A DNA stretch of 24,947 nucleotides from Candidatus Woesearchaeota archaeon (GCA_016180165.1 JACPBU010000015.1:1-24947), one strand, 5' to 3'; shown: positions 694 to 13,825, counted from the stretch's first letter. The notes: a model not told the origin generated them from the letters alone. Translations and numbers: made by a program.

Positions 694-770
694 TGGTAAA
701 TTAAAGTATTACTCCCCACCATATAAAATTAGCGTTTTCGAGCTGAAATTTAATTTCTTGAAGGATTACT

Positions 771-788
771 CATTAGTGGTCACTAATG
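771..788. promoter_or_regulatory. Perfect 8-2-8 palindrome CATTAGTG-GT-CACTAATG just upstream of a BRE/TATA; operator-like
   Basis: Seen directly between the divergent leuD and methyltransferase genes; function is inferred. Confidence 0.45.
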
Positions 789-827
789 GAAAGATTTATA
801 AAACATTTAGAACACCTTCAATATTAG

Positions 828-1781
828 ATGATTTCTATGAAAAACGCCAAAGGTTCTAAGCCTGACCCTCGACAAATAAGCCCCATTGCTGTAATATGCG
901 CTAAATCCTTGGCAAGAGATTCTAATGTGCCTTATGCTAGAGAAATTTGGAAAGAACTGGGAAGGTATGACACTGCCGTTATTCGAGAAGGGAATCTCCG
1001 CCTTATCAATTTTTTAAGAAGGCTATTGTTTTTATATCCGAGTGTCTCAGGGCTAAAATCAATCCTGGAAGGAAGGCATTTGGCTATTGATTATGCTTTA
1101 GAAGCTGAAGGCAACCCCCATGTGATGGAATTAGCATCTGGGCTTTCTCCAAGAGGCTTGTATTTTACACGATGGGATTCGGGCCTAGTCTACATAGAAA
1201 CAGAATTGGAAGGATTACTACAGATAAAGAGAGAAATTGTAACTGGAATAAGGAAAGCAGAGTTGCTGGAAGGGCGCGCTGCAACCCCAAACTATCATTT
1301 AAGTCCATTAAACGTTGTCGATAGATCCCAGTTTATGGAAGCAGTCAAGCCCTATGCAAGTTCTAAGAAAGATAGGCCTTTGGCAATTGTGCATGCTGGC
1401 CTTTTCCCATACCTTGATAAGGAGGAGCAAAAAAAGATGAGAGATAATGTTGCAGAAGCGTTAAGAACATACAGCCCAAATGGTATGTGGATTACGCCGG
1501 ACTTGGTGATAGATGAAAAAGAATTGAAGTCAAATTTGTTGATGAGATTGTTGATGAAATTAATAGAGATAAAAACGGGCAGAAAGTTTACCTTTTTCGA
1601 AAGTGAAGAGGAAACAGAGAAATTCTTAGCAGAAGGCGGATTTACAAAACAAACCATCCCAAGCGCTTATCTGGCGGATAGATTAAGCTGTGTTGATATT
1701 TTAAAATTAAATCGAGAACAAGTAAGGCAAAAAGCCCGAATGTTTGATATTTATAAAATGAGATTATGCTCACCAACGTAA
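828..1781 (+). CDS. Class I SAM-dependent methyltransferase (LCM/O-methyltransferase-like)
   Basis: Motif I VMELASGLSPRG followed by YIETEL; BRE-TATA aagatttataaaa about 25-30 nt upstream. Start could be 828 or 837. Confidence 0.75.
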   Translation: MISMKNAKGSKPDPRQISPIAVICAKSLARDSNVPYAREIWKELGRYDTAVIREGNLRLINFLRRLLFLYPSVSGLKSILEGRHLAIDYALEAEGNPHVMELASGLSPRGLYFTRWDSGLVYIETELEGLLQIKREIVTGIRKAELLEGRAATPNYHLSPLNVVDRSQFMEAVKPYASSKKDRPLAIVHAGLFPYLDKEEQKKMRDNVAEALRTYSPNGMWITPDLVIDEKELKSNLLMRLLMKLIEIKTGRKFTFFESEEETEKFLAEGGFTKQTIPSAYLADRLSCVDILKLNREQVRQKARMFDIYKMRLCSPT

Positions 1782-1922
1782 GTATTTATACAAAAAAGTT
1801 TGTTGCTTCATAATACGAAAAAACACCTTATGTTTTTTGTATCCCTCTGGGATAAACAAGTGACCTTATGTATAGAAACTAGTGTCACTTGTTATAGATT
1901 AGTGGGGAAGTATGAATTGGGT

Positions 1923-2003
1923 TCACACAAATTCCGTCACATCCACCACTTCCCCATGCACCGCAGCAGCAGCGACTATCGAAGGGCTCATCACAAGTGC
2001 ATC
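1923..2003 (-). pseudogene. Diverged remnant of a LeuC C-terminus (DALVMSPSIVAAAAVHGEVVDVTEFV*)
   Basis: Aligns without gaps to the end of leuC at 2509 ([26 protein letters not shown]). Confidence 0.8.
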
Positions 2004-2061
2004 TTCTTTTTCTGCATTTGTAATAGATAATTATTTAAAGCCTTTGTTCTTTCTGTAATGG

Positions 2062-2280
2062 ATGGAGCGTCGGCTTTCAGTTGTTGTTTCTAAAGAAGAG
2101 GATTTTTTTGTAGCTAGGGGAGTGGAAATAGAGCTTGCCAGCCAAGGAAAAAGTGTAGAGGAGGCTTTAGATAACCTTAAAGATGCCTTTGGCCTTTGGC
2201 TTAAGCATGCAGAGCCCGAAGAGCTTGCCCCTATAAGCGGAAAACAGTCTCCCCTCGTTACCCAAGTTGTCGCTGCATGA
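2062..2280 (+). CDS. hicB: HicB-like antitoxin, short form without DNA-binding domain
   Basis: ASQGKSVEEALDNLKDAFGLWL motif; ATGA overlap with the toxin gene. Confidence 0.88.
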   Translation: MERRLSVVVSKEEDFFVARGVEIELASQGKSVEEALDNLKDAFGLWLKHAEPEELAPISGKQSPLVTQVVAA

Positions 2281-2507
2281 AATTGCCAATACTTTCCGGA
2301 AGAGAGATGGTAAAGATTCTTTGTAACGAATTTGGATTTGCCTTTCTGGACCAGACAGGAAGCCATGTCATTCTGTTCAGGGAGCGTTATGGAATAAAGA
2401 GGAAACCGGTCGTTCCGCAGCATCCAGAGCTTAGGACAGGAACATTGTTAAGCATCTTAAAACAGGCGGGATTGACGAGAAAAGATTTGGAAGATGTTTT
2501 AAAATAA
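2277..2507 (+). CDS. hicA: HicA mRNA interferase toxin
   Basis: LSGREMVKIL...QTGSHVIL...VPQHPELRTGTLLSILKQAGL with the catalytic GSH. Confidence 0.92.
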   Translation: MKLPILSGREMVKILCNEFGFAFLDQTGSHVILFRERYGIKRKPVVPQHPELRTGTLLSILKQAGLTRKDLEDVLK

Positions 2508-2508
2508 T

Positions 2509-3922
2509 CTAAAGAATATTTCTCACATCCACCACTTTCCCATTAATTGCGGCAGCTGCCACCATCGCAGGGCTCATCAGCAATGTCCTTCCTTTTGGGC
2601 TTCCCTGCCTGCCGATGAAGTTCCTGTTCGACGAAGATGCGCAGAGCTGGCCTCCTTTCAGCCTGTCGGTGTTCATGCCGAGGCACATCGAGCAGCCTGC
2701 GCCCCTCCATTCAAACCCAGCGGCAATAAATATTCTGTCCAGCCCTTCTTTTTCAGCAGCTTTTTTCACCTGCTGTGAACCCGGAACGACGATTGCCTTA
2801 ACATGTGCCGCAACCTTCTTTCCCTTAACAATCCCGGCAGCTTCCCTCAGGTCGGAAATCCTTGAGTTTGTGCATGAGCCGAGGAATGCGACATCAATCT
2901 TTTTTCCCTCGATAGGTTCATTCTCCTTAAACCCCATATGCTCCAACGCCCTTTGGGCAGTCATCTGCTCGTCTTTTGGAAATGATGAGATGGCAGGAAT
3001 CCTTTCCGATATCCCGATTGCCTGCCCGGGATTTATTCCCCAGGTAACTGTCGGCTCTATCTTTGAAGCATCGAGCTCAACAATATCGTCGTAAAGCGCA
3101 TCCCTGTCTGATGCGATAGATTTCCAGTATTTCAAAGCTTTCTCGAATATTCCATCATCAGGCTTTGGGGCAAACTCTCTCCCTTTGATGTAAGCAAAAG
3201 TCTTTTCGTCGGGATTCACATAGCCGCAGGTAGCGCCGCCTTCGATGCTCATATTGCAGACAGTCATGCGCTCTTCCATGCCCATAGCTTCCACCGCTGT
3301 CCCTGAATACTCATAAGCAAAGCCGATGCCGCCATTGACTCCAAGTTTTCTGATTATTGTGAGAATGACATCTTTGGCATAGACACCCTTGCCAAGAGCA
3401 CCGTTAATGGCAATTTTCCTCACTTTTGGCTTTGACAGCGCAAGGCATTGAGTAGCGAGGATATCCCTGACCTGCGAAGTTCCTATTCCGAATGCGATGC
3501 TCCCAAAAGCGCCATGCGTCGAAGTGTGAGAATCACCGCATGCTATCGTCATTCCGGGCTGAGTCAATCCCAGCTCCGGGCCGATGACGTGGACAATGCC
3601 CTGCCTTGCATCCCTCATCCCTGACATCAAAAAGGCTGATGCCAAACTCCTTTGCGTTCTTCTCAAGCTCCTGCATCATCTTTTCAGCCATATCGTCGGA
3701 AAATGGCCTGCTTTGATTGTCAGTTGGAACGATGTGGTCAACAGTTGCAAATGTCATTTTTGGATAGAGAACTTTTAATCCCATCTCCCTGAGCATCTGG
3801 AATGCCTGAGGGGAAGTTACTTCATGGATAAGGTGAAGGCCGATAAAGAGCTGGGTCTGGCCGGTTGGCAGTTTTCTGACTGTATGCAGCTTCCAGGCTT
3901 TGTTAAAGAGGTTTTGCGGCAT
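2509..3922 (-). pseudogene. leuC: 3-isopropylmalate dehydratase large subunit, frameshifted by a 7-bp tandem duplication
   Basis: N-terminal part ([17 protein letters not shown]) and C-terminal part ([28 protein letters not shown]) lie in different frames. CATCCCT is repeated at 3609-3622; removing one copy gives [14 protein letters not shown]. Confidence 0.9.
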
Positions 3923-4128
3923 AATAAATGAAAAATGGCTGGAGATTTAAAAGTTGTTGTTTTTTTATATTTCGGCAGATGTATATCCTGAGTCTTTCTG
4001 GGGCTCTACCTCTTATCGGCAAAAAGGAAGGGCATGTGCAGGTGTTTGTTACCGGAGAGTAGCAAGGATAGAAAGATTTAAAAAGGATGATGCATCACCA
4101 TCCCTACCAAATCCGGAGGTTGAGAAAA

Positions 4129-4887
4129 ATGCCAATTCGAGAAGAAGATGTAGGTGAAGGTGAGTTAAAGAGGCGAGCTATGGGTGACGAATCCGCTGAG
4201 GACAGTATGAACTCAGGTGCTGCGGAGCTTAATGATTTTGTACCTTCAAGCTCAAGAGAATCAACTGAAGGATTGCAGATAATCAGCTTAGTTACACCAA
4301 GGGAAGTGAAAACTCAACTTTTGGGGGAAGAAACACGTATACCTGAGCATGTTAAAGGCACCGGGCCTACTCCATCTTATATTATTACCAGCGCAATAAC
4401 TGTTGACCAGCTTGTTGATCGTATCAAGGGTGATGAGGTTTTCCAGGATACTGGATGGAGCAGGAAAGACTTCCATCAATCATTCTTGGAATTATGCAGA
4501 AATGAACCTTCTTATGCAGGCTCTATTGCTGAGGTTGGAGGGAAGGCTACCGGGGTTTGGGATTATAGTGGAACCCGCTCCCAAGAGTTTGAAGGCTCTT
4601 CAAGAACGCATTACAGAGTCTTTCAATTTATTGACCAAAGAGTTAGTTTAAACCCTTCAGAGACGGCCAGGGCCATTTTAGGAAAGCGTGTAGAAGATGA
4701 TGACCCGCTTTTGCGTGCGCTTCAAGAAGAAGCGGAAGATTCCGCTCCAAACCAGCTTTTAACCGCATTGATGGCTCAAATCTATAAGGAAAGCAAAGCT
4801 GAGGGAAAGGGCCCAGTTGTGTTTATTGATGGAAAGTGGCAGGTATTTACTGCCTACCCTTTTAACGCTCGCAAAAAAGGAGCCTGA
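4129..4887 (+). CDS. Hypothetical protein, 252 aa
   Basis: GGAGGT ribosome-binding site at 4115-4120 before ATG 4129; long ORF followed by a T-tract; no recognisable motif. Confidence 0.75.
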   Translation: MPIREEDVGEGELKRRAMGDESAEDSMNSGAAELNDFVPSSSRESTEGLQIISLVTPREVKTQLLGEETRIPEHVKGTGPTPSYIITSAITVDQLVDRIKGDEVFQDTGWSRKDFHQSFLELCRNEPSYAGSIAEVGGKATGVWDYSGTRSQEFEGSSRTHYRVFQFIDQRVSLNPSETARAILGKRVEDDDPLLRALQEEAEDSAPNQLLTALMAQIYKESKAEGKGPVVFIDGKWQVFTAYPFNARKKGA

Positions 4888-5088
4888 GCAAAAAGCTAAA
4901 TAATCATTTTTTTCAGCAGCACATTTTGGGGCTGCTCATTTGCATCTTCAATTTGATAGTATGAGCCATAGCAAATAACGCAAAAATACTTACGGATAAA
5001 TATTGATGGATAATAGTAGCCCTTTCGTAATACGAAAATACGATTGTTGCCCGTTTGTAACACGAAAAACACGTTATTTTTTTGTAAA

Positions 5089-5193
5089 AAAAATGCGAAC
5101 TATCCCCGCCCTAAAGGGCGGGGCTTTTACGTTCGCATTTTTAGATTCAAAAGTCGCTCTAAAGAGCGGGGCTTTACACCCAGCGACTTTTGA
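5089..5193. mobile_element. Two tandem IS200/IS605-type terminal hairpin units with no transposase (PATE-like remnant)
   Basis: CCCCGCCC-TAAA-GGGCGGGG and CGCTC-TAAA-GAGCG, both followed by GCTTT(T)AC and each enclosed by a perfect 12-bp inverted repeat. Confidence 0.6.
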
Positions 5194-5423
5194 GTAATAA
5201 GGGATACGGAAAAACGATTTTCGTTTTTTGTACCACGCAGGTGTAAGCAAACGGCATATCTTTGCCTAACGAAAGCATTCCACAAATCGGAGGGATGTTT
5301 AGTCCTCAAAGCCCGTATAAATTTATTATTATTGCGGTTATTGGCAAAATTGTGTCGTTGGTTAGAATTGGCGATTTACTATTGGCGAATCTGATTTGAA
5401 CAAGATTGAAAAACAGGAAGACA

Positions 5424-6365
5424 ATGGCAAAAAAGCAAACTGACGTCATTAAAATCCCGGTAAAAGAATTCCGATACGAAGCCTGCAGGATTATTCCCCA
5501 GAAGGAGTATTCTATCACTGAACAGCCTTTTTACCGCCCCATAGAGAATGAAGTGGACGATGCCTTAGCTGCTTACCTTGATGGCAAATCGGTCCTTCTT
5601 CTTGGGCCAACCGGAACCGGAAAGAACCGCCTTGTTGAATACCTAAACTGGAGAGCAAACAAACTTTTAAGGGAGCAGGGGGATAAAACTGTCATCCCCT
5701 TATACAAGCTCGTCGGAAATGAAGATATTCTTACATCTGAATTAGTCAGCAGGGGTTCTCTTCAAAAGGCTGTTGAGGAAGGTATACTTGAAAGCTGCGT
5801 AAGGGAAGGGGGCATTTTTTATTTTGATGAAATCTTTCAGGCAAGGGATGAGCTGAGGACAATTGTCCATGAGGTAACTGATAATCGGGGCAGGATGCTC
5901 AGTGATCCAAGGCAGGAGCTGGTTTTCCGCCCCGGGAGGACCTTCGGATTTTTTGCTGCCGGTAACCCGATGTACCTGGGCCCTGACCAGGCGATGAACA
6001 GGGCAACGATGGACAGGTTTTTCACTATCTGGATGAATTATCCCCCTGAGCCTGCAGAAATTGAGATTGTGTTAAAAGAGGGGCAGGTCAACGAAGAAAT
6101 CGCTTCTGCCCTGGTCAAGCTTGCCGGGGAAACGAGAAAACTTAAGGGGAGCTATGGATTAAGGGAAGGTGCCAGCACGCGGGCTCTTGTCGAGGCGGCA
6201 CAGCTTTACGCACAAGGGATGCCTCTTCCAAGGGCAGTCAAGGGCAGGATTATCAATACTCTTACCCATGACCAGGGAGACCTTGCAAAGATACAGAAAG
6301 CCCTCCGCGATGACTCCCTCAAGGTTCCTCCAATAATCTTCGGGGAAGGAAATGGCCAAAAATGA
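5424..6365 (+). CDS. MoxR-family AAA+ ATPase, CbbQ/NirQ/NorQ subfamily
   Basis: PFYRPIENEV N-terminus, Walker A GPTGTGKN, Walker B IFYFDE, AGNP, MDRF, YPPEPAEIEIV and GLREGASTRAL. Confidence 0.9.
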   Translation: MAKKQTDVIKIPVKEFRYEACRIIPQKEYSITEQPFYRPIENEVDDALAAYLDGKSVLLLGPTGTGKNRLVEYLNWRANKLLREQGDKTVIPLYKLVGNEDILTSELVSRGSLQKAVEEGILESCVREGGIFYFDEIFQARDELRTIVHEVTDNRGRMLSDPRQELVFRPGRTFGFFAAGNPMYLGPDQAMNRATMDRFFTIWMNYPPEPAEIEIVLKEGQVNEEIASALVKLAGETRKLKGSYGLREGASTRALVEAAQLYAQGMPLPRAVKGRIINTLTHDQGDLAKIQKALRDDSLKVPPIIFGEGNGQK

Positions 6366-9300
6366 GTGGCTTGAGCAAAGGATTGAGGAAGAGCTCAATA
6401 AAACAAATATTGACTCCCAGGACAGAGCTCGGATAAAAAAGATACTCCGGGAAGCAGTTGGATCCCTCAGCGATTTGATCCGCCCAGGCCTGCAGGAATT
6501 TCCTTTGCCGCCTTTGAGCAAAGCGATAGCTTCCGTCGGCGGAGAAGGGCTTGAAGATTATTTCTCCCTGTACACCCTGTTGTATCGGGGGATCGATAAA
6601 AATTCAGGAATATTTAAAAAAGGCAGATTGCCCACGAAGGTAGAGCCTGTTTCTGAAAAGCTGGATGAGCTTTTGGCGTTGCTGCCCAACGGGCACCTTC
6701 CTGCATTGGCTGAGCTTTCCAGGAAATTCCATTCAACCTACCACCTTCAAGAGCGGGTAGACCAGCAGTTTAAATTCCTCCATGCATATTTATCTGCCAA
6801 TGCTTCCCTCAATGGCGATGCCAGCCAAAAGGATAAGCTGGATATCCAATATAAGGCAGCAGGCTCCCTGCTCTCCAGCGGTGCTGCGTCAAAGACCGTT
6901 TTGGGGTTCCTAAAATGGTGGCCCAAAATCGCCAAACCTCTCAATGTTCAGGATTTGAGGCATTGGAATGATGCTTTTCACCATTATCTCAATCCAAAGC
7001 CGGGAAGACTCCCAGCGAATGATGTTGTATTGTCAAACTTTATTGAAGACGCGGGGGAGCGGCACCGGAATCCCCATCCCATGTATCTTGCCGCACTGAA
7101 GGAGATTTCCCAGGGCCATAATCTTGAGGGGATTCCACAGGTTTATTTTGATATTGCCGATGAATTCCAGGATAGGCTAAAATCAAGATCAGAAAGAAGT
7201 GAAAGGGCAGGATACATCGATGATTTTGCGCAGATAAGCGAAAAGTTATCTTCCTTATCCCCGGAAATAAAGGGCCATCTGAGCAGCATCCAAAAATTGT
7301 CAAAGGATAGGCCCAGCACGTCTTTCACCAGCTATGCTATCATAGTCGATAGCAATTATACTCCCGATGAGTCCCTCGCGCTTTTTAGTTTTATCTCTCA
7401 TGCGGCAGAAAAGCTCAATGGCGACCAGAGGTTTATTGGCCTTTTGGACGATTTGAGAAATGCGGCAATCGAAAGAGGAGGTAGGGACTTAAAGAACATC
7501 CTTTCATTTGCAGGTAGCCTCATACCGGGGAATCTCCCCCTCATGAGCCAATTTCTTGAAGATACCCTGACTTTTGGGCCGGACATCCCCCTTTCAGCTC
7601 CGGCAAGCCTTGCTGATATTGCCATAACACTGTATAAAGAAAATGAATATGCTCCAGAGGGCCAGCGAAAAGACCAAAAGCAGCTTCGCGATTCATTTTC
7701 CATGATTGAACAGAGATTCCACACAATAAAAGATCCAGACATCAAAGTGCTATTGTCTACAGCATACAGGGATATGATTGATGCGCATCCTTACGAATCC
7801 AGGATGGCCGATAATTCTCCACCACTTGATTCTGCTTTATTGATCGATGCCTTTTCAAAAGCTATTGAGGTTTCCCCTGATAATTATTACTTCCAGCACA
7901 CCGTTGCCCAGCTAATAACTTCTGGCTCAAAAAAGATGAGGAGGTTCCTGTCTCCCTTCATTTCGAAACTGGAAGGCATCATGCAGGCCATCTCCTTAGG
8001 AAGGGAGGAGTTTTGCAAATATATGTCCATGCTGGTTGAAATCATCGGAGCGAAAGCATCTGCATCAGAGCAGAATTTTGATAATGAAATAAGGCATTAC
8101 CTAAGAGAGACTAGCGCCATCCCAAAAGCAAGGAACAGGATCAGAGATGCCAATGTTCGGTTTTTTGAAAGACTATACAAGACAAACTTTGATTTTTTCA
8201 CTAATGAAAAAGGCGATGTACCGCCAAATGTAAAGTTTACTCTCGAAGAATTGTTTAAAGTTGGGGAGAGGGTGCCCTATAAGCGAAGGCTAACCTATCT
8301 CGATGTTGAAGGGGCAATCCTCGATTCAGTAAATGCATGGTTGGAAGACAGGATCAAAAGCGCAGAGAAAAGCAGGCTCCATGACATTTTTCTAAGGATG
8401 TATTGCAGCTGTGAAGAGGATGGCTTGCCTCAGATGATCGGGCGCCTTCCGAAATTCAGAGAAGCTTTAGGAACTATGCCTGAAGCCTTCCAAAAAGACG
8501 CTTTGCAGCAGGCTGAAAAACTTCTTGGATTAAACTATGAAGTTGGGATGGCCAATCCAGTCTTTTTGAGAGGGGATAAGTCATCGAAGGATCAGGTGGC
8601 ACTTGCCGCATCATTTCTTGAGCATTCTGGAAAAGCTTATGCCTCGCTTGGCAAGGATGTGGGGCTATGGTTGGAGCAGGGAATACAGCAAGCTCACTCG
8701 CCTCAGGAATTGATGGGTTTCTTAAATGATGAGCATAGCTACTTTATCGGCAAGTTCAAGGAAAGAGCGACTGGATTGAGGCTCGTCGACGTAAGCCAGC
8801 GGATAAAAGTCTACACTCAGATGCTGTCAGGGCAAAGCTTTGAGATACGTTCGACACCCAGCCATCTGCCGACGCGCTTTGAGCAGGGGATCATCTACCT
8901 GCCGGAAGCAGTCTATTTTTCAAAAGATTTTGAAGAAAACCTGTTGGAGTTTAAGGCAAGGGCATCCTATCCATGCGGAGCCTTGTTGTATGGCACATTT
9001 CATTTTACCGATGATGGAAAAGATCTCCTCAGGCAGCGGGGCCTGGATGATGCGGGGAATGTCGAAAGCATTTTTGCATCATACGGCAACAGGCAGTTTG
9101 CCGACACCCTTTTTTACATCCTTGAGGTCAATAGGATTGATGGGCAGTTGAGAAGGGAGTTTCCAAGGATCAGGCCAATCTTAGATGCTTACAAGCGCAA
9201 TACCCTCGAAAATGGAAGGTTCGATCAGGTATCCGGATACGAGGCAGAAGAAGTTTTAGCGCGGTTATACCAGCACTTTCTGGGCGAAGATACAATGCCG

Positions 9301-10473
9301 CAAGTTCCTCAAAAGGGAAAGAAAGCCTTTGGCCAGGCTGTTTCGCTCATGGATAGCCTTTGTGATAGCAAAGCTGTTTCAATAGTCCCCACGCTCAAAG
9401 CCCTCGACACCATTTATACTATTTTTGAGCAGTCAATTGACCTTGAGCTGCCTTCAACTTTCCAGCACCAATCGGCTATGGAAATCAGCCCTCAGGAAAT
9501 TGACCGAATGACTTTAGAAAAAAAGCTTTCTCAGGGGGAAATTTCTAAAGAAGAAGCCGTTGAAGGGACAGATATATTTTGGTATCCTGAATGGGATTCT
9601 AAAAAGAATGCCTATATCGAGCGTTTTGCCAGAGTCCAGGTGCAAAAGCCGCCAATAGATGGCGGACTTGCGGTGGCCCAATCAATTCTTGAAAAAGATT
9701 CATCCATCATCCGCCATCTCAGAAAGATGTTTGAGCTGCTTAAGCCGAAATACAGGCAGATAAGGTCTGGCCTCTCCTCCGGTGAGGTTGACCTTCCGAG
9801 AGCAACCCAGGCGCTTATTGACATGCAGGCAGGCCTTGTTCCTGATGATAAGGTGTACTTTAGGATATTCTATAACCGGAGGGACCTTGCTACCCTCGTG
9901 CTTTCCGAAGTGAGCGGCTCTACAAAACGTTTTGCCGACCTTACTGTTTTACCCCCCGCTAAAGTTATCGATGCCATAAGAAAGACGATGCTCTACTGCG
10001 CTGAGGCATTTGATGCCGCAAATGATTCATTTGCTCTTGCAGCAGGCTCGGGAAAAAGCGAGAAAAATGTCCAGTTTTATGTCATCAAAGATTTTTCTGA
10101 TGGATATGATGATGCTATCCGGGGAAGGATCGGGGGCCTTATCCCGATGCAGGAAAACAGGGACGGGGCTTTGATCAGGCACGCCACCTATTTCATCGGG
10201 CAGCAGCCACAGAGGACAAAACTCCTCATCTATCTTATGGAAGGGTATCCTGAAGATGAGGGCTATGCCGACGAGAGGGCTTTTGAGGACACGAAACAGG
10301 CACTTCTCGAAGCAAAAAACACGCCAGGAGTGTTTCCCATAGTCTTTGCTTTTGGAAGGTCAATTGACCAACGAATACGGTCACTGAGGGAAGAGATGAT
10401 GTATAATGAAGTCAGGAATCCTAATGAGGTCCCGGATGTCCTTCTAAGGGAATATATCAGGCTTACAAAATGA
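6352..10473 (+). CDS. 1373-aa protein with C-terminal NorD/CbbO-like vWA region and about 800-aa unassigned N-terminus
   Basis: IIYLPE, FWYPEWD, GEVDLPRA, RRDLATLVLSEVSGST, NRDGALIRHA and KLLIYLMEGYPED; overlaps the ATPase stop by 14 nt. Confidence 0.85.
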   Translation: MAKNEWLEQRIEEELNKTNIDSQDRARIKKILREAVGSLSDLIRPGLQEFPLPPLSKAIASVGGEGLEDYFSLYTLLYRGIDKNSGIFKKGRLPTKVEPVSEKLDELLALLPNGHLPALAELSRKFHSTYHLQERVDQQFKFLHAYLSANASLNGDASQKDKLDIQYKAAGSLLSSGAASKTVLGFLKWWPKIAKPLNVQDLRHWNDAFHHYLNPKPGRLPANDVVLSNFIEDAGERHRNPHPMYLAALKEISQGHNLEGIPQVYFDIADEFQDRLKSRSERSERAGYIDDFAQISEKLSSLSPEIKGHLSSIQKLSKDRPSTSFTSYAIIVDSNYTPDESLALFSFISHAAEKLNGDQRFIGLLDDLRNAAIERGGRDLKNILSFAGSLIPGNLPLMSQFLEDTLTFGPDIPLSAPASLADIAITLYKENEYAPEGQRKDQKQLRDSFSMIEQRFHTIKDPDIKVLLSTAYRDMIDAHPYESRMADNSPPLDSALLIDAFSKAIEVSPDNYYFQHTVAQLITSGSKKMRRFLSPFISKLEGIMQAISLGREEFCKYMSMLVEIIGAKASASEQNFDNEIRHYLRETSAIPKARNRIRDANVRFFERLYKTNFDFFTNEKGDVPPNVKFTLEELFKVGERVPYKRRLTYLDVEGAILDSVNAWLEDRIKSAEKSRLHDIFLRMYCSCEEDGLPQMIGRLPKFREALGTMPEAFQKDALQQAEKLLGLNYEVGMANPVFLRGDKSSKDQVALAASFLEHSGKAYASLGKDVGLWLEQGIQQAHSPQELMGFLNDEHSYFIGKFKERATGLRLVDVSQRIKVYTQMLSGQSFEIRSTPSHLPTRFEQGIIYLPEAVYFSKDFEENLLEFKARASYPCGALLYGTFHFTDDGKDLLRQRGLDDAGNVESIFASYGNRQFADTLFYILEVNRIDGQLRREFPRIRPILDAYKRNTLENGRFDQVSGYEAEEVLARLYQHFLGEDTMPQVPQKGKKAFGQAVSLMDSLCDSKAVSIVPTLKALDTIYTIFEQSIDLELPSTFQHQSAMEISPQEIDRMTLEKKLSQGEISKEEAVEGTDIFWYPEWDSKKNAYIERFARVQVQKPPIDGGLAVAQSILEKDSSIIRHLRKMFELLKPKYRQIRSGLSSGEVDLPRATQALIDMQAGLVPDDKVYFRIFYNRRDLATLVLSEVSGSTKRFADLTVLPPAKVIDAIRKTMLYCAEAFDAANDSFALAAGSGKSEKNVQFYVIKDFSDGYDDAIRGRIGGLIPMQENRDGALIRHATYFIGQQPQRTKLLIYLMEGYPEDEGYADERAFEDTKQALLEAKNTPGVFPIVFAFGRSIDQRIRSLREEMMYNEVRNPNEVPDVLLREYIRLTK

Positions 10474-10717
10474 TTCTTTCTCAACCTGCCAGAAGTTAGT
10501 ATTATTGTTGAAATCCGGTAACCCCGAGGAGCACTGAAAAAGAATTAGTTGGGAGGATACATCGATGAATACATAGCTGAAGACACTGCTAACAAAGATA
10601 AATAATAGTTATAATAAATTATTGAAATAAAAGAACCAAGCGTATTTAGTCCTGATTTTGTTAGCACTGCTATCTTCCTTGCAGCCTCATAACCTTTCCA
10701 TTAAATCCCCAACTCTT

Positions 10718-11803
10718 CTACTCCTGCAATCTTCCTCCCAGCCTATATGCACTTTGGTTGAAACTTTGCAGTTCCAAAAATTTTTTCTTCATCTCTGCCA
10801 TCTCCCCTTCAATATGGACAAAGGGGTTGAACAAGGTATCGTCGGTAAGAAACTTGCCAAGCAGCAGGCCCAACCTCAAAGAATCAGCTGAGAGGACATT
10901 AAATCCTCTGCCGACATCTGGAGTTATAAGGGCATTGGCAAGGTCAGGCAATATTTCAGGATTCACTTGTGCAGCCATCATATTTTGGAAATATACTCCA
11001 CTGTCTGGATGAGTGGTTGCAAATCTGTGCAGCCTGATATTGCCGATATCCTCAGGCTGGTAATCTTCAGGAGAAGCAACCTCTCGGTACCAATCATTAT
11101 CTCTACCCTGAGCTTTATTCCCCTCATTGGAAGTTGAACTGCTATCAAGAGGGTCAAAATTTTGTTGGCTCTTCATTAATTGTGCCAATTTTGCCCTAAA
11201 TTCATCTCTACTCATATGAAATATATCAACATAAACATCGTTGACTCTTCCTTCAACCATCGCCTTGAATAAATCTGCCCTTGTTATTTGACCGTCTTTC
11301 AGGCCATCAATTTTAGCATACACCTGAAGCGAAAACCCAGTATCACTATTTGGGTTGCCATAGATGATAGAATCCCTTTTAAGGGGGGCAATTCCCAAAA
11401 TCATATGCTCCAAAGGCCAAAGCTCTGATGGTTTTGATTCCTTTCGGCCATTGAGGACTAAAAGGGCATATTCCAACCCAAAGATGAGGGAGAAGCTGCT
11501 CCTCATTATATCAGATGCAGTAATGATCTGTCTAGGGGTTGGATCATCGGCACTAAAGGAAGGATCTTTCTTTACAGCAGATTCATATTCTGCCCAGGGA
11601 TAAGTTGGATCATCAACAACGAAGGGCGCTGGCTTTTCTCCAGAAAAACTGGGATTGCACATCCGCTCATCCAGAGAATGTTCCATAGGCTTGTGGCCCT
11701 TTCGTTTAAGAAATGCTGGGCTGTCAGCGTAATTACCAAAAAGTGCTTGAAAGGCAGCCTGCTGCATCAAATGGTTCATATCGTCGCCTGGCTTATTGCC
11801 CAT
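10718..11803 (-). CDS. Hypothetical protein, 361 aa
   Basis: Long ORF; ATG at 11803 is preferred because the upstream extension overlaps the divergent promoter and gene. Confidence 0.75.
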   Translation of the reverse strand: MGNKPGDDMNHLMQQAAFQALFGNYADSPAFLKRKGHKPMEHSLDERMCNPSFSGEKPAPFVVDDPTYPWAEYESAVKKDPSFSADDPTPRQIITASDIMRSSFSLIFGLEYALLVLNGRKESKPSELWPLEHMILGIAPLKRDSIIYGNPNSDTGFSLQVYAKIDGLKDGQITRADLFKAMVEGRVNDVYVDIFHMSRDEFRAKLAQLMKSQQNFDPLDSSSTSNEGNKAQGRDNDWYREVASPEDYQPEDIGNIRLHRFATTHPDSGVYFQNMMAAQVNPEILPDLANALITPDVGRGFNVLSADSLRLGLLLGKFLTDDTLFNPFVHIEGEMAEMKKKFLELQSFNQSAYRLGGRLQE

Positions 11804-11909
11804 ACTCAAGGTAAAAGATGACGTATTCTTAAACCTTACGGCCAATATTATAAACTTAGAAGTAGTAAAATTAGAAACTTTTATAAATAGAAATAGTTTC
11901 CCAAGACCT

Positions 11910-12884
11910 ATGGATAAAAGCCGCCGGGATATGCTGGAAAGGAAATTAGCAGCCATTAAAGAGATTAAACAGGAGGAATATGTTGGGACAGGAAATGCAT
12001 TAGCCCGACTTGGCGAGTCACCAAGATACCCCGCCACAAGGGAGCGTGTTCTTGGGGTGTGTGATAAAGTAGAGGGGATTTATGAGGGTATTGCATCTAG
12101 GTTTGAAGATATCCTTAGAGCTTCTCCTGAAAACGATGATGACGGAGATGATGGCAGAGATGATGATAGCGGAAATTTGGACAATGAAGATGATTACAGC
12201 CAAATTCAAAGTATGTCTGAAAGATACGTAGATTATCTTGATGCGAATGGACAATTTACATTTCGTGGAGCTAATCCCATTGTCAATTGGAGAGCATTTC
12301 TCATAGGTGACTTCCAAAAAAAAGTTCCGGACCGAAAAAGCCTGGCTGAGCACCTGTCAAAAATATTTATTATAACCAACGATCTTGATGAGCCTTTTGA
12401 TAATAAGTTGGGATATATTGCTGTGATTCATGTGATTTGGCAGGGTGATGTTCCCAAAGACATATACACTCTTGCTGAAATAGCTTCCAGGAATGTTAAT
12501 TGGGCCAGCGTTTTTTCAGAAGGTGGAGTTAGGAAGGTGGAATCTTCTATTAAAAGTAGTTTAAGGGCAGATTATTTCTGTCCTCAAGGGCAGTTTCAGG
12601 TAATGGATTATTGCCATGAATTAGGGAACCATGAAAATAGGAGAAAGCTCCTCACCTCCAAGCTGGAAACTGACGGAGTGGTTTCGCCTGATGGCCTGGA
12701 AGGAGTTAGAGAAGAATGGAAAATATGTTTGGAATGTGCAGCTCAAAGGCGTGATGATTTGATTACCATTCGTGGTCCGGAAGTTATTATTAAAAGCACA
12801 GATACGAGAATAAAATATCTCGAATTTTTACTGAGGACATTGAGGCAGGAGGAGGGATATATCAGGGGGTTTCTTGGTGCATAG
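11910..12884 (+). CDS. Hypothetical protein with Asp-rich tract, 324 aa
   Basis: TATA (aaacttttataaatag) about 25 nt before ATG 11910; tract NDDDGDDGRDDDSGNLDNEDD. Confidence 0.75.
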   Translation: MDKSRRDMLERKLAAIKEIKQEEYVGTGNALARLGESPRYPATRERVLGVCDKVEGIYEGIASRFEDILRASPENDDDGDDGRDDDSGNLDNEDDYSQIQSMSERYVDYLDANGQFTFRGANPIVNWRAFLIGDFQKKVPDRKSLAEHLSKIFIITNDLDEPFDNKLGYIAVIHVIWQGDVPKDIYTLAEIASRNVNWASVFSEGGVRKVESSIKSSLRADYFCPQGQFQVMDYCHELGNHENRRKLLTSKLETDGVVSPDGLEGVREEWKICLECAAQRRDDLITIRGPEVIIKSTDTRIKYLEFLLRTLRQEEGYIRGFLGA

Positions 12885-13072
12885 TTAACGCAGGGTTTTC
12901 TTATTTAATTGGCATCATTTTATATGACATGATTTTGCGGGCATAGAATTATTGCAATTTCCTCAGCCTGTTGAGGATTGTCCGTATAATAACGGATTGC
13001 CACTTTGGGAAGAACAGGCTGACTCATCTTCTGAAGCAAAAGGTTTAAAAATGTGGGGGGATTAGTGACTGT

Positions 13073-13825
13073 ATGAGCGGTGGTTTTCCCAAAGGTAAAG
13101 ATTTTTATGACCAAACAGATTTTGATCAATTATTAAAAGATGCACGTGAACATGCAGAAAGAGTTCGGGCAGGATTAAGGCAACATGGGCCATTGGCTAC
13201 TGCCTATCTCAGGCCGGGGAGCGTTCATCTTAACCCCCTTAGAGACTTTCCTCAACAATTTCCTGCTCACCAAGAAACTCCAGGACAATTCGATATTGTT
13301 TTATTGCCCTTGCCGTCAGGAAAATCCCCAGAAGATGCACCTAAAGAACTTGACCATCCTCAATATGGACATTTAAGATATGTTGGCCCGCATACTTCTT
13401 TCCGGGAAACTTGGGTGAGGGGATCCGACGGTAGGATAGGGCATAGTGCGGGCAGTTCAGTTCAATCAATGTATCAGATCATGGAGCCAGGCAGGGCAGC
13501 AGGGCCAACACCTGGGAAACAACCCATGCAAGAGGCCTATCTTGACCCATTTGAAGATTCTAAAATGGGCAGCCAACATACTGAGCCTCCGGTTATTGAC
13601 GCTGAATTTGAGGTTATTGGTGAAAATCATCCTTTTGCAGGTCAAGAAGCAATTCCGCCACCCCCAAGCAAGGCGGCTAGTTCCGGGCCTTCCTCAAAAA
13701 TACCGGATAGTAAAATATCTTTAGAGGAATTGGTCAGGGATAAATCAATTAATAAATCTCCAAGTATTATTGAATTTGATCCTTCTAAGTATAGTGCCTT
13801 TGATAAAGGAAAAATCATCAAGTGA
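13073..13825 (+). CDS. Hypothetical Pro/Ser-rich protein, 250 aa
   Basis: TATA aaggtttaaaaa about 25 nt upstream; long ORF. Confidence 0.7.
   Translation: MSGGFPKGKDFYDQTDFDQLLKDAREHAERVRAGLRQHGPLATAYLRPGSVHLNPLRDFPQQFPAHQETPGQFDIVLLPLPSGKSPEDAPKELDHPQYGHLRYVGPHTSFRETWVRGSDGRIGHSAGSSVQSMYQIMEPGRAAGPTPGKQPMQEAYLDPFEDSKMGSQHTEPPVIDAEFEVIGENHPFAGQEAIPPPPSKAASSGPSSKIPDSKISLEELVRDKSINKSPSIIEFDPSKYSAFDKGKIIK

What the first reader, a model, noticed from the sequence alone, without database searches (positions are those of the whole stretch)
5424..10473. CbbQ/NorQ-type AAA+ with an oversized NorD/CbbO-like adaptor and no client enzyme nearby
CbbQ-CbbO activate Rubisco and NorQ-NorD mature nitric-oxide reductase, and are usually encoded beside their client. 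Here the translationally coupled pair sits among orphans. The vWA protein carries about 800 extra N-terminal residues before the NorD-like part, which begins near RLVDVSQRIKVY. That region may be a fused client, a new targeting domain or a sensor, making this a possibly new remodelling or conflict module (inference).
Basis: partly seen in the sequence, partly recalled or inferred. Interest (0 to 1): 0.7.

Follow-up and report, generated by a model that had tools for sequence, protein, structure and literature searches.

The report
Mobile NorQ/NorD-like motor, fused adaptor
A tiny groundwater (DPANN) archaeon carries, on a 6.8-kb strain-specific insert, a rare three-gene ATP-driven protein-remodelling machine of the NorQ/NorD type whose giant adaptor is two neighbouring genes of related archaea joined into one protein; what the machine acts on is still unknown.

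Summary
5424-6365 encodes a CbbQ/NorQ-type AAA+ ATPase. It overlaps by 14 nt a 1373-aa ORF (6352-10473) whose C-terminus is a NorD-type VWA domain.

The extra N-terminus is not a fused client enzyme. Residues 1 to about 525 are a fast-evolving all-helical repeat arm. This arm matches a separate 430-480-aa gene that lies between the ATPase gene and an 800-aa CbbO/NorD-like gene in a conserved four-gene cassette of eight Pacearchaeota/Woesearchaeota genomes. Residues from about 525 to 1373 are that 800-aa protein. One-polypeptide versions also occur in two genomes of the same order.

The upstream "orphan" (4129-4887) is a divergent member of the cassette's small first-gene family, so the unit has three genes. 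The whole unit (3923-10678) is absent from the same-genus genome and from a co-occurring relative in the same groundwater samples.

I found no Rubisco, NorB-type oxidase or CobN in five carriers that are 95-100% complete. I found no paper on the cassette.

The most likely function is a NorQD-like finger-in-pore remodeller, with the helical arm as scaffold or target binder and the small protein as client or cofactor. A conflict role is not excluded.

This scan had already noted three-gene and four-gene forms on other DNA. The link between the two forms is new here.

The parts
3923..10678 (.). About 6.76-kb insert holding exactly the three cassette genes; absent from the same-genus genome and from a co-occurring relative
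   Evidence: In G001:C36, leuC (matching window 2516-3925) is followed after about 290 bp by sequence matching window 10651-11998. Contigs in runs X1, X3 and X5 join 3922 to 10679, skipping 6756 bases. No flanking direct or inverted repeats were found.
4129..4887 (+). Small first-gene protein, a divergent member of family 'fam2' with an insertion of about 47 aa. The ORF is open from ATG 4087; the likely start is ATG 4129.
   Evidence: hhalign against the fam2 profile gives probability 92%, E 7e-7. hmmsearch gives E 1e-8. It shares the invariant columns GD, G, P, I, W-x-Y, R-x-F, L, L..E, N and M in an 11-sequence alignment. GGAGGT lies 7-12 nt before ATG 4129, and MPIR aligns with the family's MPER/MPDR start.
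5084..5368 (.). MITE-like multi-copy repeat inserted between gene 1 and the ATPase gene. It includes a GC-rich hairpin with a T-run (5104-5123).
   Evidence: Pieces of 5084-5368 match at least 8 places on other contigs of G001. Summed contig depth here is about 5-fold higher than in the flanking bins, and many contigs end with unrelated sequence (loose ends) in the metagenomes. A terminator-like hairpin of 8 GC pairs is present. In relatives gene 1 and the ATPase gene are 2-20 nt apart.
5424..6365 (+). CbbQ/NorQ-type MoxR AAA+ ATPase (313 aa). Walker A GPTGTGKN is at 5604-5627, Walker B FYFDE at 5817-5831, and the helix-2-insert motif SRGSL at 5748-5762.
   Evidence: Pfam AAA_5 plus CbbQ_C. 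Matches to PDB CbbQ and NorQ run nearly full length. Alignment with 10 relatives is. Mean identity to the ATPases of the four-gene cassettes is 34%.
6352..7929 (+). Residues 1 to about 525 of the 1373-aa protein: helical-repeat arm equivalent to the separate third gene ('fam3', 430-480 aa) of the four-gene cassettes
   Evidence: hhalign score is 51.0 (probability 85%, E 6.5e-6) for residues 136-271 against fam3 columns 66-196. The alignment is collinear over 26-519 against 2-439 of 451 in greedy mode. Forty block-shuffles scored 16.8 +/- 2.6, maximum 23.9. The MAFFT alignment is collinear. The AF2 model is all-alpha with 27 helices and pLDDT 65-84 over residues 185-520. Fold searches returned only generic helical-repeat matches.
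7930..10473 (+). Residues from about 526 to 1373: CbbO/NorD-like adaptor ('fam0', about 800 aa when free-standing), with a helical N-domain, a linker, a finger and a VWA domain
   Evidence: BLASTP of residues 608-1371 against P0004 residues 75-810 gives 32% identity, E 7e-105. An hhalign profile built without the window sequence aligns residues 498-1373 to columns 2-800 of 800. NorD 9qhd_G matches at 3e-23.
9745..9888 (+). Residues 1132-1179: counterpart of the NorD 'finger' that enters the NorQ pore
   Evidence: This stretch aligns without gaps to PdNorD residues 403-448 (alignment). The finger is defined in PMC13036017.
9907..10257 (+). VWA metal site in non-canonical form: E1186-V-S-G-S1190 (9907-9921), N1269 (in ENRDG, 10153-10167) and E1297 (in MEGYPED, 10237-10257)
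   Evidence: Alignment of 16 VWA domains and alignment with NorD. The same E / N / E pattern is present in L039 and in most four-gene forms. The bacterial relatives L013 and L014 have the canonical Asp at both carboxylate positions (L013 also Thr; L014 has Asn at the Thr position).

Best explanation
The locus is a self-contained, horizontally mobile three-gene cassette found so far almost only in DPANN archaea. It has three genes:
- a small soluble protein (about 180-250 aa);
- a CbbQ/NorQ-type AAA+ ATPase;
- a 1373-aa adaptor.

Shown: the adaptor is the single-polypeptide form of two proteins that eight related genomes encode as adjacent genes. These are a fast-evolving helical-repeat protein of about 450 aa and a CbbO/NorD-like protein of about 800 aa ending in a finger plus a VWA domain.

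Inferred from the solved NorQD complex:
- The ATPase forms a hexamer.
- The VWA domain of the adaptor docks on the ring with its finger in the pore.
- ATP-driven rotation stretches the linker between the VWA domain and the helical N-terminal parts.
- This force remodels a bound target, possibly to insert or remove a metal or to open a complex.
- The added helical-repeat arm is a protein-binding scaffold that holds or selects the target. It is not a client enzyme.
- Because the small first-gene protein is the only other constant partner and no known client exists in carrier genomes, that protein is the best candidate for client or specificity factor.
For: Family assignment:
- The ATPase and the VWA part are assigned.

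Four-gene cassette in relatives:
- The order small protein, AAA+, helical protein, 800-aa VWA protein is conserved in 8 DPANN loci.
- Each part of the window's genes matches its counterpart in the same order. Identities are 24.5%, 34%, 15.6% and 30%, the same rank order as among the cassettes themselves (46, 67, 24, 45).

Equivalence of the N-terminal arm to the third gene:
- Profile score 51 against shuffles of 16.8 +/- 2.6, and a collinear alignment over about 490 residues.
- The sizes add up: 450 + 800 is about 1250-1370.
- The fam0 profile covers residues 498-1373.

Other one-polypeptide forms:
- G293 has small protein, AAA+ and a 1244-aa adaptor. G056 has a 1196-aa adaptor.
- These two fall in one 98%-supported clade with the window and the four-gene forms.

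The three genes move as one unit:
- The indel is seen against the sister genome and in the metagenome contigs.

No known client:
-.
- Flanking genes differ at every locus.

Mechanistic features:
- The NorD finger region is retained without gaps.
- The helical arm is all-alpha with no catalytic fold.
Against: - No experiment or complex prediction supports any contact.
- The window's copy is the most divergent. Its Walker A reads GKN instead of GK[ST]. Its helix-2-insert motif reads SRGSL instead of GRYLL, so 2 of the 4 NorQ contact residues are kept.
- The adaptor ends in RLTK rather than the hydrophobic IAI/IAF of relatives.
- A repeat with a terminator-like hairpin separates gene 1 from the ATPase gene.
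- The metal site is non-canonical, E/N/E for D/T/D, so metal-dependent grip is assumed, not shown.
- Similarity of the arm to the third gene is weak (15.6% identity; 85% hhalign probability). It is not significant for the other fused forms.
- The AF2 models are of modest confidence (pLDDT 61.5 and 70).
Confidence: 0.6

Rival explanations
1. Conflict (defence or host-interaction) module. The cassette would be an archaeal analogue of the MoxR-vWA 'ternary' conflict systems. The motor would restructure a complex with a third protein to release or activate an effector when an invader or partner cell is sensed. The fast-evolving helical arm would be the sensor.
For: - Patchy distribution: a fam0-like hit at E <= 1e-10 in 21 of 401 sampled genomes of the order, and clear cassettes in about 5 of them.
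- Only 8 four-gene loci were found in one genome per species across 185,579 species.
- It is a strain-specific insert with island-less relatives in the same samples.
- Mobile-element genes lie beside two cassettes: LAGLIDADG in L039 and IS110 in L043.
- The helical part evolves fastest (24% against 67% for the ATPase).
- A conceptual precedent exists in PMC7159879.
Against: - No PADLOC hit.
- No recognisable effector (nuclease, protease, pore or toxin) in any component.
- No copy in viral contigs or phage records.
- The described ternary systems have an N-terminal vWA domain with C-terminal effector domains and occur in multicellular bacteria. Here the vWA domain is C-terminal and NorD-like.
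Confidence: 0.2
2. The N-terminal extension is a fused client: the substrate enzyme has been joined to its own chaperone adaptor.
For: Only the size of the extension and the lack of a separate client nearby.
Against: - The model is all helical hairpins, and the best fold matches are designed helical repeats (Z <= 9.6, below the tool's stated noise level for helical proteins).
- No Pfam, NCBIfam or PDB sequence hit.
- It is the least conserved part of the system.
- No homologue was found in 1.84 billion cluster representatives. That is unlike an enzyme needing a dedicated chaperone.
Confidence: 0.05
3. The window's copy is a decaying, no longer functional remnant of the cassette.
For: - Walker A reads GKN, the pore-insert motif is degenerate and the C-terminus is altered.
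- A repeat element with a terminator-like hairpin splits the operon.
- The small protein carries a 47-aa insertion.
- The window has one of the long terminal branches in the tree (1.99 against a median of 1.31).
- The neighbouring leuC is frame-shifted.
Against: - All three ORFs are intact, including 1373 codons without a stop at 45% GC and about 30% identity to relatives. This requires long-term purifying selection.
- The sequence is identical or nearly so in four runs of two studies.
- Walker A Lys, Walker B DE, sensor 1 Asn, the arginine finger and sensor 2 are all kept.
Confidence: 0.1
4. An ordinary CbbQO or NorQD chaperone that serves Rubisco, nitric-oxide reductase or a chelatase encoded elsewhere in the genome.
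For: Sequence similarity to CbbQ/NorQ and NorD. Three of five genomes with the four-gene form do have an unlinked form-III-like Rubisco.
Against: - Rubisco was found in 0 of 5, and COX1/NorB in 0 of 5, genomes (95-100% complete) that carry long-adaptor pairs.
- CobN was found in 0 of 5 genomes tested, including the window's own genome and the same-genus genome G001, which lacks the cassette.
- None was found in the window's own genome, which is only 62% complete.
Confidence: 0.03

Closest known systems
NorQ/NorD (FeB-insertion chaperone of cytochrome c-dependent NO reductase; PDB 9qh4-9qhg; PMC13036017, PMC9976466)
   Same: - The ATPase has AAA_5 plus a CbbQ_C-type C-terminal domain (E 7e-33 to NorQ).
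- The adaptor C-terminus aligns to NorD residues 331-604 (E 3e-23), including the pore-entering finger without gaps.
- The ATPase gene comes first and overlaps the adaptor gene.
   Different: - No NorB/NorC in the genome.
- The adaptor is 1373 aa against 640 aa, with an extra helical-repeat arm of about 525 aa and a larger N-domain.
- MIDAS reads E-x-S-x-S / N / E instead of D-x-S-x-S / T / D.
- The helix-2 insert is 3 residues shorter and reads SRGSL.
- Walker A reads GKN.
- A conserved small third protein is part of the unit.
CbbQ/CbbO Rubisco activase (PDB 5c3c, 6l1q)
   Same: Best-scoring solved relatives of the ATPase (1.5e-34, 2e-33). The free-standing relatives of the adaptor (about 800 aa) are CbbO-sized (about 770 aa).
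   Different: - Rubisco is absent from the five near-complete genomes with long-adaptor pairs and was not found in the window's genome.
- The cassette is never beside Rubisco in any of the loci examined.
- Two extra components are present, the small protein and the helical protein or arm.
DPANN four-gene and three-gene CbbQ/CbbO-like cassettes noted earlier in this scan on other DNA (e1-2879274, e1-2843043, e1-3815887)
   Same: Same description: an ATPase, a CbbO/NorD-like VWA protein and small or unknown partner proteins, with no client, in Woesearchaeota-type archaea. One is on a strain-specific island.
   Different: No sequence look-alike was returned by the scan's index, so identity of the families is not verified. 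New here are the homology link 'long adaptor = gene 3 + gene 4' and the population-level indel.
MoxR-vWA-centric ternary conflict systems (Kaur, Burroughs, Iyer & Aravind 2020, PMC7159879)
   Same: A MoxR-clade AAA+ ATPase, a vWA protein and a third conserved protein form a mobile, patchily distributed unit. The proposed logic there is that the pair restructures a complex formed with the third protein.
   Different: - Those systems have the vWA domain at the N-terminus with C-terminal effector domains, and VMAP, iSTAND, FtsH or beta-propeller third components. They occur in multicellular bacteria.
- Here the vWA domain is C-terminal and NorD-like, no effector domain is recognisable, and the hosts are DPANN archaea.

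Membership tests
CbbQ/NorQ subfamily of MoxR AAA+ ATPases | AAA_5 core followed by the CbbQ/NirQ/NorQ C-terminal domain | tested here: met
   Pfam AAA_5 2.1e-15 and CbbQ_C 3e-20, both above their cut-offs. Matches to 5c3c, 6l1q, 9qh4 and 9qhd run nearly full length.
CbbQ/NorQ subfamily of MoxR AAA+ ATPases | Canonical Walker A GxxGxGK[ST], Walker B hhhhDE, sensor 1, arginine finger and sensor 2 | tested here: inconclusive
   Walker B FYFDE, sensor 1 AAGNP, Arg in TMDRF and sensor 2 GASTR are present. Walker A reads GPTGTGKN, with Asn where all 10 relatives and CbbQ/NorQ have Ser or Thr. The base calls are confirmed by independent contigs.
CbbQ/NorQ subfamily of MoxR AAA+ ATPases | Helix-2 insert hairpin with motif GRxLL/IxxxxT, which grips the adaptor's finger (PMC13036017) | tested here: not met
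   The window reads S-R-G-S-L-Q-K followed by a 3-residue gap. Only Arg and the second Leu of the four NorQ contact residues are kept. DPANN relatives read GRYLL, also with the 3-residue gap and without the Thr.
NorD/CbbO VWA adaptors | C-terminal VWA domain preceded by the finger element | tested here: met
   phmmer E 3e-23 to NorD 9qhd_G. Residues 1132-1179 align without gaps to the PdNorD finger 403-448. The profile of the family hits NorD at 7e-33.
NorD/CbbO VWA adaptors | Canonical MIDAS DxSxS ... T ... D | tested here: not met
   The window reads E1186-V-S-G-S, N1269 and E1297. The same pattern is present in most DPANN relatives. The canonical Asp at both carboxylate positions is present in bacterial L013 and L014 and in NorD (L013 and NorD also have the Thr; L014 has Asn there). 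Whether the E/N/E site binds metal cannot be tested here.
NorD/CbbO VWA adaptors | Hydrophobic extreme C-terminus that docks on the ATPase post-sensor-1 loop | tested here: inconclusive
   DPANN relatives end in RIAI, RIAF or QIVI. The window ends in IRLTK. The requirement is taken from PMC13036017.
NorD/CbbO VWA adaptors | Encoded directly after, and coupled to, the ATPase gene | tested here: met
   14-nt overlap at 6352-6365.
NorQD system (functional) | NorB/NorC client present | tested here: not met
   PF00115 was not found in the window's genome (62% complete) or in five 95-100% complete genomes with long-adaptor pairs.
CbbQO system (functional) | Rubisco client present and usually adjacent | tested here: not met
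   PF00016 was not found in the window's genome or in five near-complete genomes with long-adaptor pairs. It is present but unlinked in 3 of 5 genomes with the four-gene form.
DPANN small-protein / AAA+ / helical / VWA cassette (defined here from loci L004-L011) | All four protein families present in the same order on one strand | tested here: met
   fam2: hhalign 92%, hmmsearch 1e-8. AAA+: 5e-117 to the family HMM, which included the window sequence; 34% mean identity. fam3: as residues 1 to about 525. fam0: as residues from about 525 to 1373.
MoxR-vWA ternary conflict systems (PMC7159879) | VMAP, iSTAND, FtsH or beta-propeller third component, and effector domains C-terminal to the vWA domain | tested here: not met
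   No Pfam, NCBIfam or PADLOC hit in the small protein or the N-terminal arm. The vWA domain is the C-terminal domain, so nothing follows it.

The most novel reading that the evidence does not exclude
The cassette is a new, archaeal class of self-contained mobile MoxR-vWA machine whose client is its own small first-gene protein. The motor, held on a rapidly diversifying helical arm, would convert that protein from a latent to an active state. The result would be an effector, or a structural or adhesion factor, used in virus defence or in the DPANN-host interaction. Fusion or fission of the arm would tune this coupling.
Probability: 0.2. Interest if true: 0.75.

Novelty: new variant of a known kind. 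Interest (0 to 1): 0.5.

Why it matters
NorQD and CbbQO are the only structurally understood members of this motor type, and both are tied to a known metalloenzyme.

This cassette occurs in organisms with minimal metabolism that lack all known clients. It moves as a unit and brings its own two uncharacterised partners. It offers a compact three-protein system to ask what else finger-in-pore MoxR-VWA motors can remodel.

The finding that the giant adaptor equals two neighbouring genes tells experimenters two things. The helical protein is a physical part of the machine. The fused version provides a natural 1:1 complex for structural work.

The E/N/E metal site is a natural variant of MIDAS that is worth testing.

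Tried and rejected

Searches that returned too little to use:
- The search for homologous proteins returned almost nothing, because its candidate list was truncated. This is not evidence of rarity by itself.
- The metagenome scan with the small-protein profile gave only 7 loci. Their complete-gene scores matched (most of them exactly) those of the GTDB loci already held.
- The viral contig scan found none. The phage tblastn search gave only a marginal VWA hit.

Comparisons without result:
- The third-gene family is not a duplicate of the adaptor N-domain (hhalign probability 0.2%).
- No PDB sequence relatives were found for the small or the helical family.
- Foldseek and VIA searches of both AF2 models gave no specific fold.
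- The N-terminal extensions of the other long forms (L039-L043) show no BLAST similarity to each other or to the window. They show no significant hhalign match to the third-gene profile.

Other checks:
- No RNA holder was listed among the sequencing runs, so nothing can be said about expression.
- No terminal repeats or target duplication were found at the insert borders.
- The careful tree did not finish in time. Only the quick tree is used, and it cannot decide fusion against fission.

Claims that touch unpublished genomes:
- The order tally (21 of 401) includes the unpublished genomes G218, G325 and G256. One of the long open frames (G218, 1247 aa) is known only from that table.
- No sequence from these genomes was fetched, and no other claim rests on them.
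Full report
**1. What is in the sequence**

The window is contig C163 of a 1.23-Mb, 62%-complete metagenome-assembled genome. Its relatives have 0.6-2.2-Mb genomes. Related loci carry the names Pacearchaeota, Woesearchaeota and Nanoarchaeota, so this is a DPANN archaeon. The runs that hold the sequence are groundwater metagenomes.

On the + strand, an ORF from ATG 5424 (or TTG 5406) to 6365 overlaps by 14 nt a 1373-codon ORF at 6352-10473.

The first protein is a CbbQ/NorQ-type MoxR ATPase:
- Pfam AAA_5 2e-15 and CbbQ_C 3e-20.
- CbbQ 5c3c 1.5e-34 and NorQ 9qh4 6.8e-33, over nearly its whole length.

The second protein has no Pfam, NCBIfam or PADLOC hit. Its residues 1050-1330 match NorD (9qhd_G residues 331-604) at E 3e-23. 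NorD genes on bacterial plasmids match from residue 912 on.

Contigs from four runs of two studies cover 5170-10584 with no indel and 0-2 substitutions. The giant ORF is therefore real and not a frameshift artefact.

**2. How much of the protein is really 'extra'**

An exhaustive phmmer search with residues 1-800 against 1.84 billion cluster representatives found only three proteins besides the query. All three are about 810 aa, and they match residues 613-800 to their own residues 75-260.

BLASTP shows that one of them (P0004) aligns over its residues 75-810 to residues 608-1371 of the window protein (32% identity, E 7e-105). A profile of seven such proteins, built without the window sequence, aligns to residues 498-1373 over columns 2-800 of 800.

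The C-terminal 850 residues or so are therefore a complete member of a CbbO-sized, DPANN-specific NorD/CbbO-like family. I call it fam0. The truly additional part is residues 1 to about 525.

**3. The extra part is a neighbouring gene in relatives**

A scan of one genome per species (185,579 species) with the fam0 alignment returned eight DPANN loci with full-length relatives, and three bacterial loci matching over the C-terminal 300-330 residues of the query (the local profile search also aligns part of the N-domain of L013 and L014).

In all eight DPANN loci the same four genes lie head to tail on one strand:
- a protein of about 180 aa (fam2);
- the AAA+ ATPase (about 285 aa);
- a protein of 430-480 aa (fam3);
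- fam0 (about 800 aa).

fam2 and fam3 have no Pfam or PDB sequence relatives.

Residues 136-271 of the window protein match fam3 columns 66-196 by hhalign (score 51.0, probability 85%, E 6.5e-6). In greedy mode the alignment is collinear over residues 26-519 against columns 2-439 of 451. Forty composition-preserving shuffles scored 16.8 +/- 2.6 (maximum 23.9), and the reversed sequence scored 22.9. MAFFT gives the same collinear alignment, with invariant F142, Y146, W205, F266, L299, Y328 and R484.

The sizes also fit: about 450 + about 800 is close to 1244-1373.

The 1373-aa protein is thus the single-chain form of gene 3 plus gene 4.

Two genomes of the same order carry the same arrangement:
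- G293 has fam2 (E 2e-44), the AAA+ ATPase and a 1244-aa protein whose residues 497-1243 are fam0.
- G056 has the AAA+ ATPase, cut by the contig end, and a 1196-aa protein.

In a quick maximum-likelihood tree of the fam0 part, the window, G293, G056 and the seven four-gene forms make one clade (SH-aLRT 98). The four-gene forms are a sub-clade (93), and the three long forms are unresolved outside it. The data therefore do not say whether the long form arose by fusion or the four-gene form by fission.

**4. The upstream 'orphan' is the third component**

ORF 4087-4887 matches the fam2 profile (hhalign 92%, E 7e-7; hmmsearch 1e-8). In an 11-sequence alignment it keeps the family's invariant residues. 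It carries an insertion of about 47 aa.

The family N-terminus (MPxR...GD) and a GGAGGT box point to ATG 4129 as the start.

In relatives the small gene abuts the ATPase gene. Here 536 bp intervene. This spacer contains a repeat (5084-5368) that is multi-copy in the sister genome and over-represented in the metagenomes. It includes a GC-rich hairpin with a T-run.

**5. The three genes are one mobile unit**

In the same-genus genome G001, leuC (90% identical to window 2516-3925) is followed after about 290 bp by sequence matching window 10651-11998. The 6.76 kb in between is missing from G001. It holds exactly the small gene, the ATPase gene and the adaptor gene.

In three of the four runs laid, a contig joins 3922 to 10679. 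It carries about 8% substitutions, so it comes from a G001-like relative. In run X5 its depth is 46.5, against about 4 for the island-bearing form.

No terminal repeats were found.

Neighbours of the cassette differ at every locus:
- DEAD helicase, PAP2 phosphatase, CBS-domain protein, HisRS, rhomboid protease and ABC transporter genes;
- a LAGLIDADG endonuclease gene beside the G293 copy;
- an IS110 transposase gene beside the more distant G095 cassette.

The cassette is rare:
- 21 of 401 sampled genomes of the order have any fam0-like hit at E <= 1e-10, and about five have a clear cassette. This tally includes three unpublished genomes, which I did not read.
- None of 13 genomes of the same family has it.

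**6. Known clients are absent**

| Client family | Window's genome (62% complete) | Genomes with long-adaptor pairs (95-100% complete) |
|---|---|---|
| Rubisco large subunit | not found | 0 of 5 |
| COX1/NorB | not found | 0 of 5 |
| CobN/ChlH | not found | 0 of 3 |

Three of five genomes with the four-gene form have an unlinked Rubisco. There is no consistent association.

**7. Anatomy relevant to mechanism**

The solved NorQD complex (PMC13036017) shows the following:
- A finger (PdNorD 403-448) protrudes from the VWA domain into the NorQ pore. There it contacts the helix-2 insert motif GRxLL/IxxxxT.
- The NorD C-terminus docks on the post-sensor-1 loop.
- The NorD N-domain binds the small subdomain of one subunit.
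- ATP-driven rotation stretches the linker.

In the window protein, the finger region (residues 1132-1179) aligns without gaps.

Deviations in the window's proteins:
- MIDAS reads E1186-V-S-G-S, N1269 and E1297 instead of D-x-S-x-S, T and D. This is a clade feature shared with G293 and most four-gene forms. It is not present in the bacterial relatives.
- The ATPase's helix-2 insert is 3 residues shorter in all DPANN members. In the window it reads SRGSL rather than GRYLL.
- Walker A reads GKN rather than GK[ST].
- The adaptor ends in RLTK rather than RIAI or RIAF.

All other ATPase motifs are intact.

An AF2 model of residues 1-540 was built with the fam3 alignment. It is entirely helical, with 27 helices, mean pLDDT 61.5 and pLDDT 65-84 over residues 185-520. 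Foldseek found nothing at E <= 1e-3. The best VIA matches are designed helical-repeat proteins at Z <= 9.6, below the tool's stated noise level for helical proteins.

The small protein models as short hairpins plus three helices with a disordered middle (pLDDT 70). It has no fold match.

Conservation among the four-gene cassettes:

| Component | Mean pairwise identity among the four-gene forms | Window against the four-gene forms |
|---|---|---|
| AAA+ ATPase | 67% | 34% |
| Small protein (fam2) | 46% | 24.5% |
| Adaptor (fam0) | 45% (VWA part 56%, N-half 38%) | 30% |
| Helical protein (fam3) | 24% | 15.6% |

The window's parts show the same rank order.

**8. Interpretation**

Shown:
- The locus is a three-gene, mobile, DPANN-specific NorQD/CbbQO-like cassette.
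- The giant adaptor equals the helical gene plus the VWA gene of four-gene relatives.
- Known clients are absent.

Inferred:
- It works as a finger-in-pore remodeller like NorQD.
- The helical arm is a scaffold or target-binding extension of the adaptor N-domain. It can be a separate subunit, is all-helical and evolves fast.
- The small protein, the only other constant partner, is the client or a specificity factor.

Rivals:
- A conflict role is plausible from the distribution and the island context. It lacks any recognisable effector, any PADLOC hit and any viral copy. The described MoxR-vWA ternary systems have a different architecture.
- Decay of this particular copy is suggested by the motif changes and the repeat insertion. 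It is contradicted by three long intact ORFs.
- The fused-client idea is rejected.

**9. Novelty**

I found no paper that mentions such a cassette. A search for CbbQ with DPANN returned one unrelated paper, and a search for MoxR with Woesearchaeota returned none.

This scan has already reported, on other DNA, a three-gene form, a four-gene form and an island-borne form (e1-2843043, e1-2879274, e1-3815887). The scan's index returned no sequence look-alikes, so I cannot verify that these are the same families.

New here:
- the homology that links the long adaptor of the three-gene form to genes 3 and 4 of the four-gene form;
- the population-level presence/absence polymorphism;
- the E/N/E metal site.

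I rate it a new variant of a known kind, of moderate interest.

Noticed in passing
window 2509-3922 (- strand): leuC is split into two overlapping ORFs in different frames (2509-3666 and 3533-3922). The 90%-identical gene of the same-genus genome G001 is a single 468-aa ORF (L048 1132-2538). This is either a frameshifted gene or an assembly error.
   Followed up: partly
window 695-2515: A second insertion relative to G001. There leuD and leuC are 28 bp apart. Here 1.8 kb lies between them, with a 317-aa ORF (828-1781; weak LCM methyltransferase hit, E 0.0055) and small ORFs. A 50-nt piece (1807-1859) is repeated on several G001 contigs. The leuCD neighbourhood looks like an insertion hot spot.
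   Followed up: partly
window 5084-5368: MITE-like repeat with two nested GC-rich hairpins. It is multi-copy in G001 (at least 8 places). Its summed contig depth in the metagenomes is about 5 times that of the flanking bins, with many contigs running on into unrelated sequence at 5084, 5144 and 5197-5199. No transposase is in the window.
   Followed up: partly
L007 864-4123 (- strand): The Pacearchaeota contig with a four-gene cassette also carries, 3 kb upstream on the other strand, a second and very divergent AAA+/VWA pair (282 aa and 798 aa). This pair has no small-protein or helical-protein gene.
   Followed up: no
L039 7662-8516; L043 2028-3725: A LAGLIDADG homing-endonuclease-like ORF lies directly beside the G293 cassette. 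An IS110-family transposase gene lies upstream of the G095 cassette. Both are hints of mobility.
   Followed up: no
L041 5246-9475; L042 5477-9148: More distant AAA+ plus giant VWA pairs (1409 and 1223 aa) occur in the same order. They have a degenerate MIDAS (D-Q-S-K-F and N-Q-S-K-N) and no fam2 gene. Their N-terminal 700-800 residues match nothing.
   Followed up: no
window 10651-13143: The 'orphan' genes downstream of the insert (about 10718-11800 on the - strand, 11796-12884 on the + strand) are conserved at 73-84% DNA identity in G001 as divergent 361-aa and 362-aa ORFs. They are genus-level genes of unknown function and not part of the cassette.
   Followed up: partly
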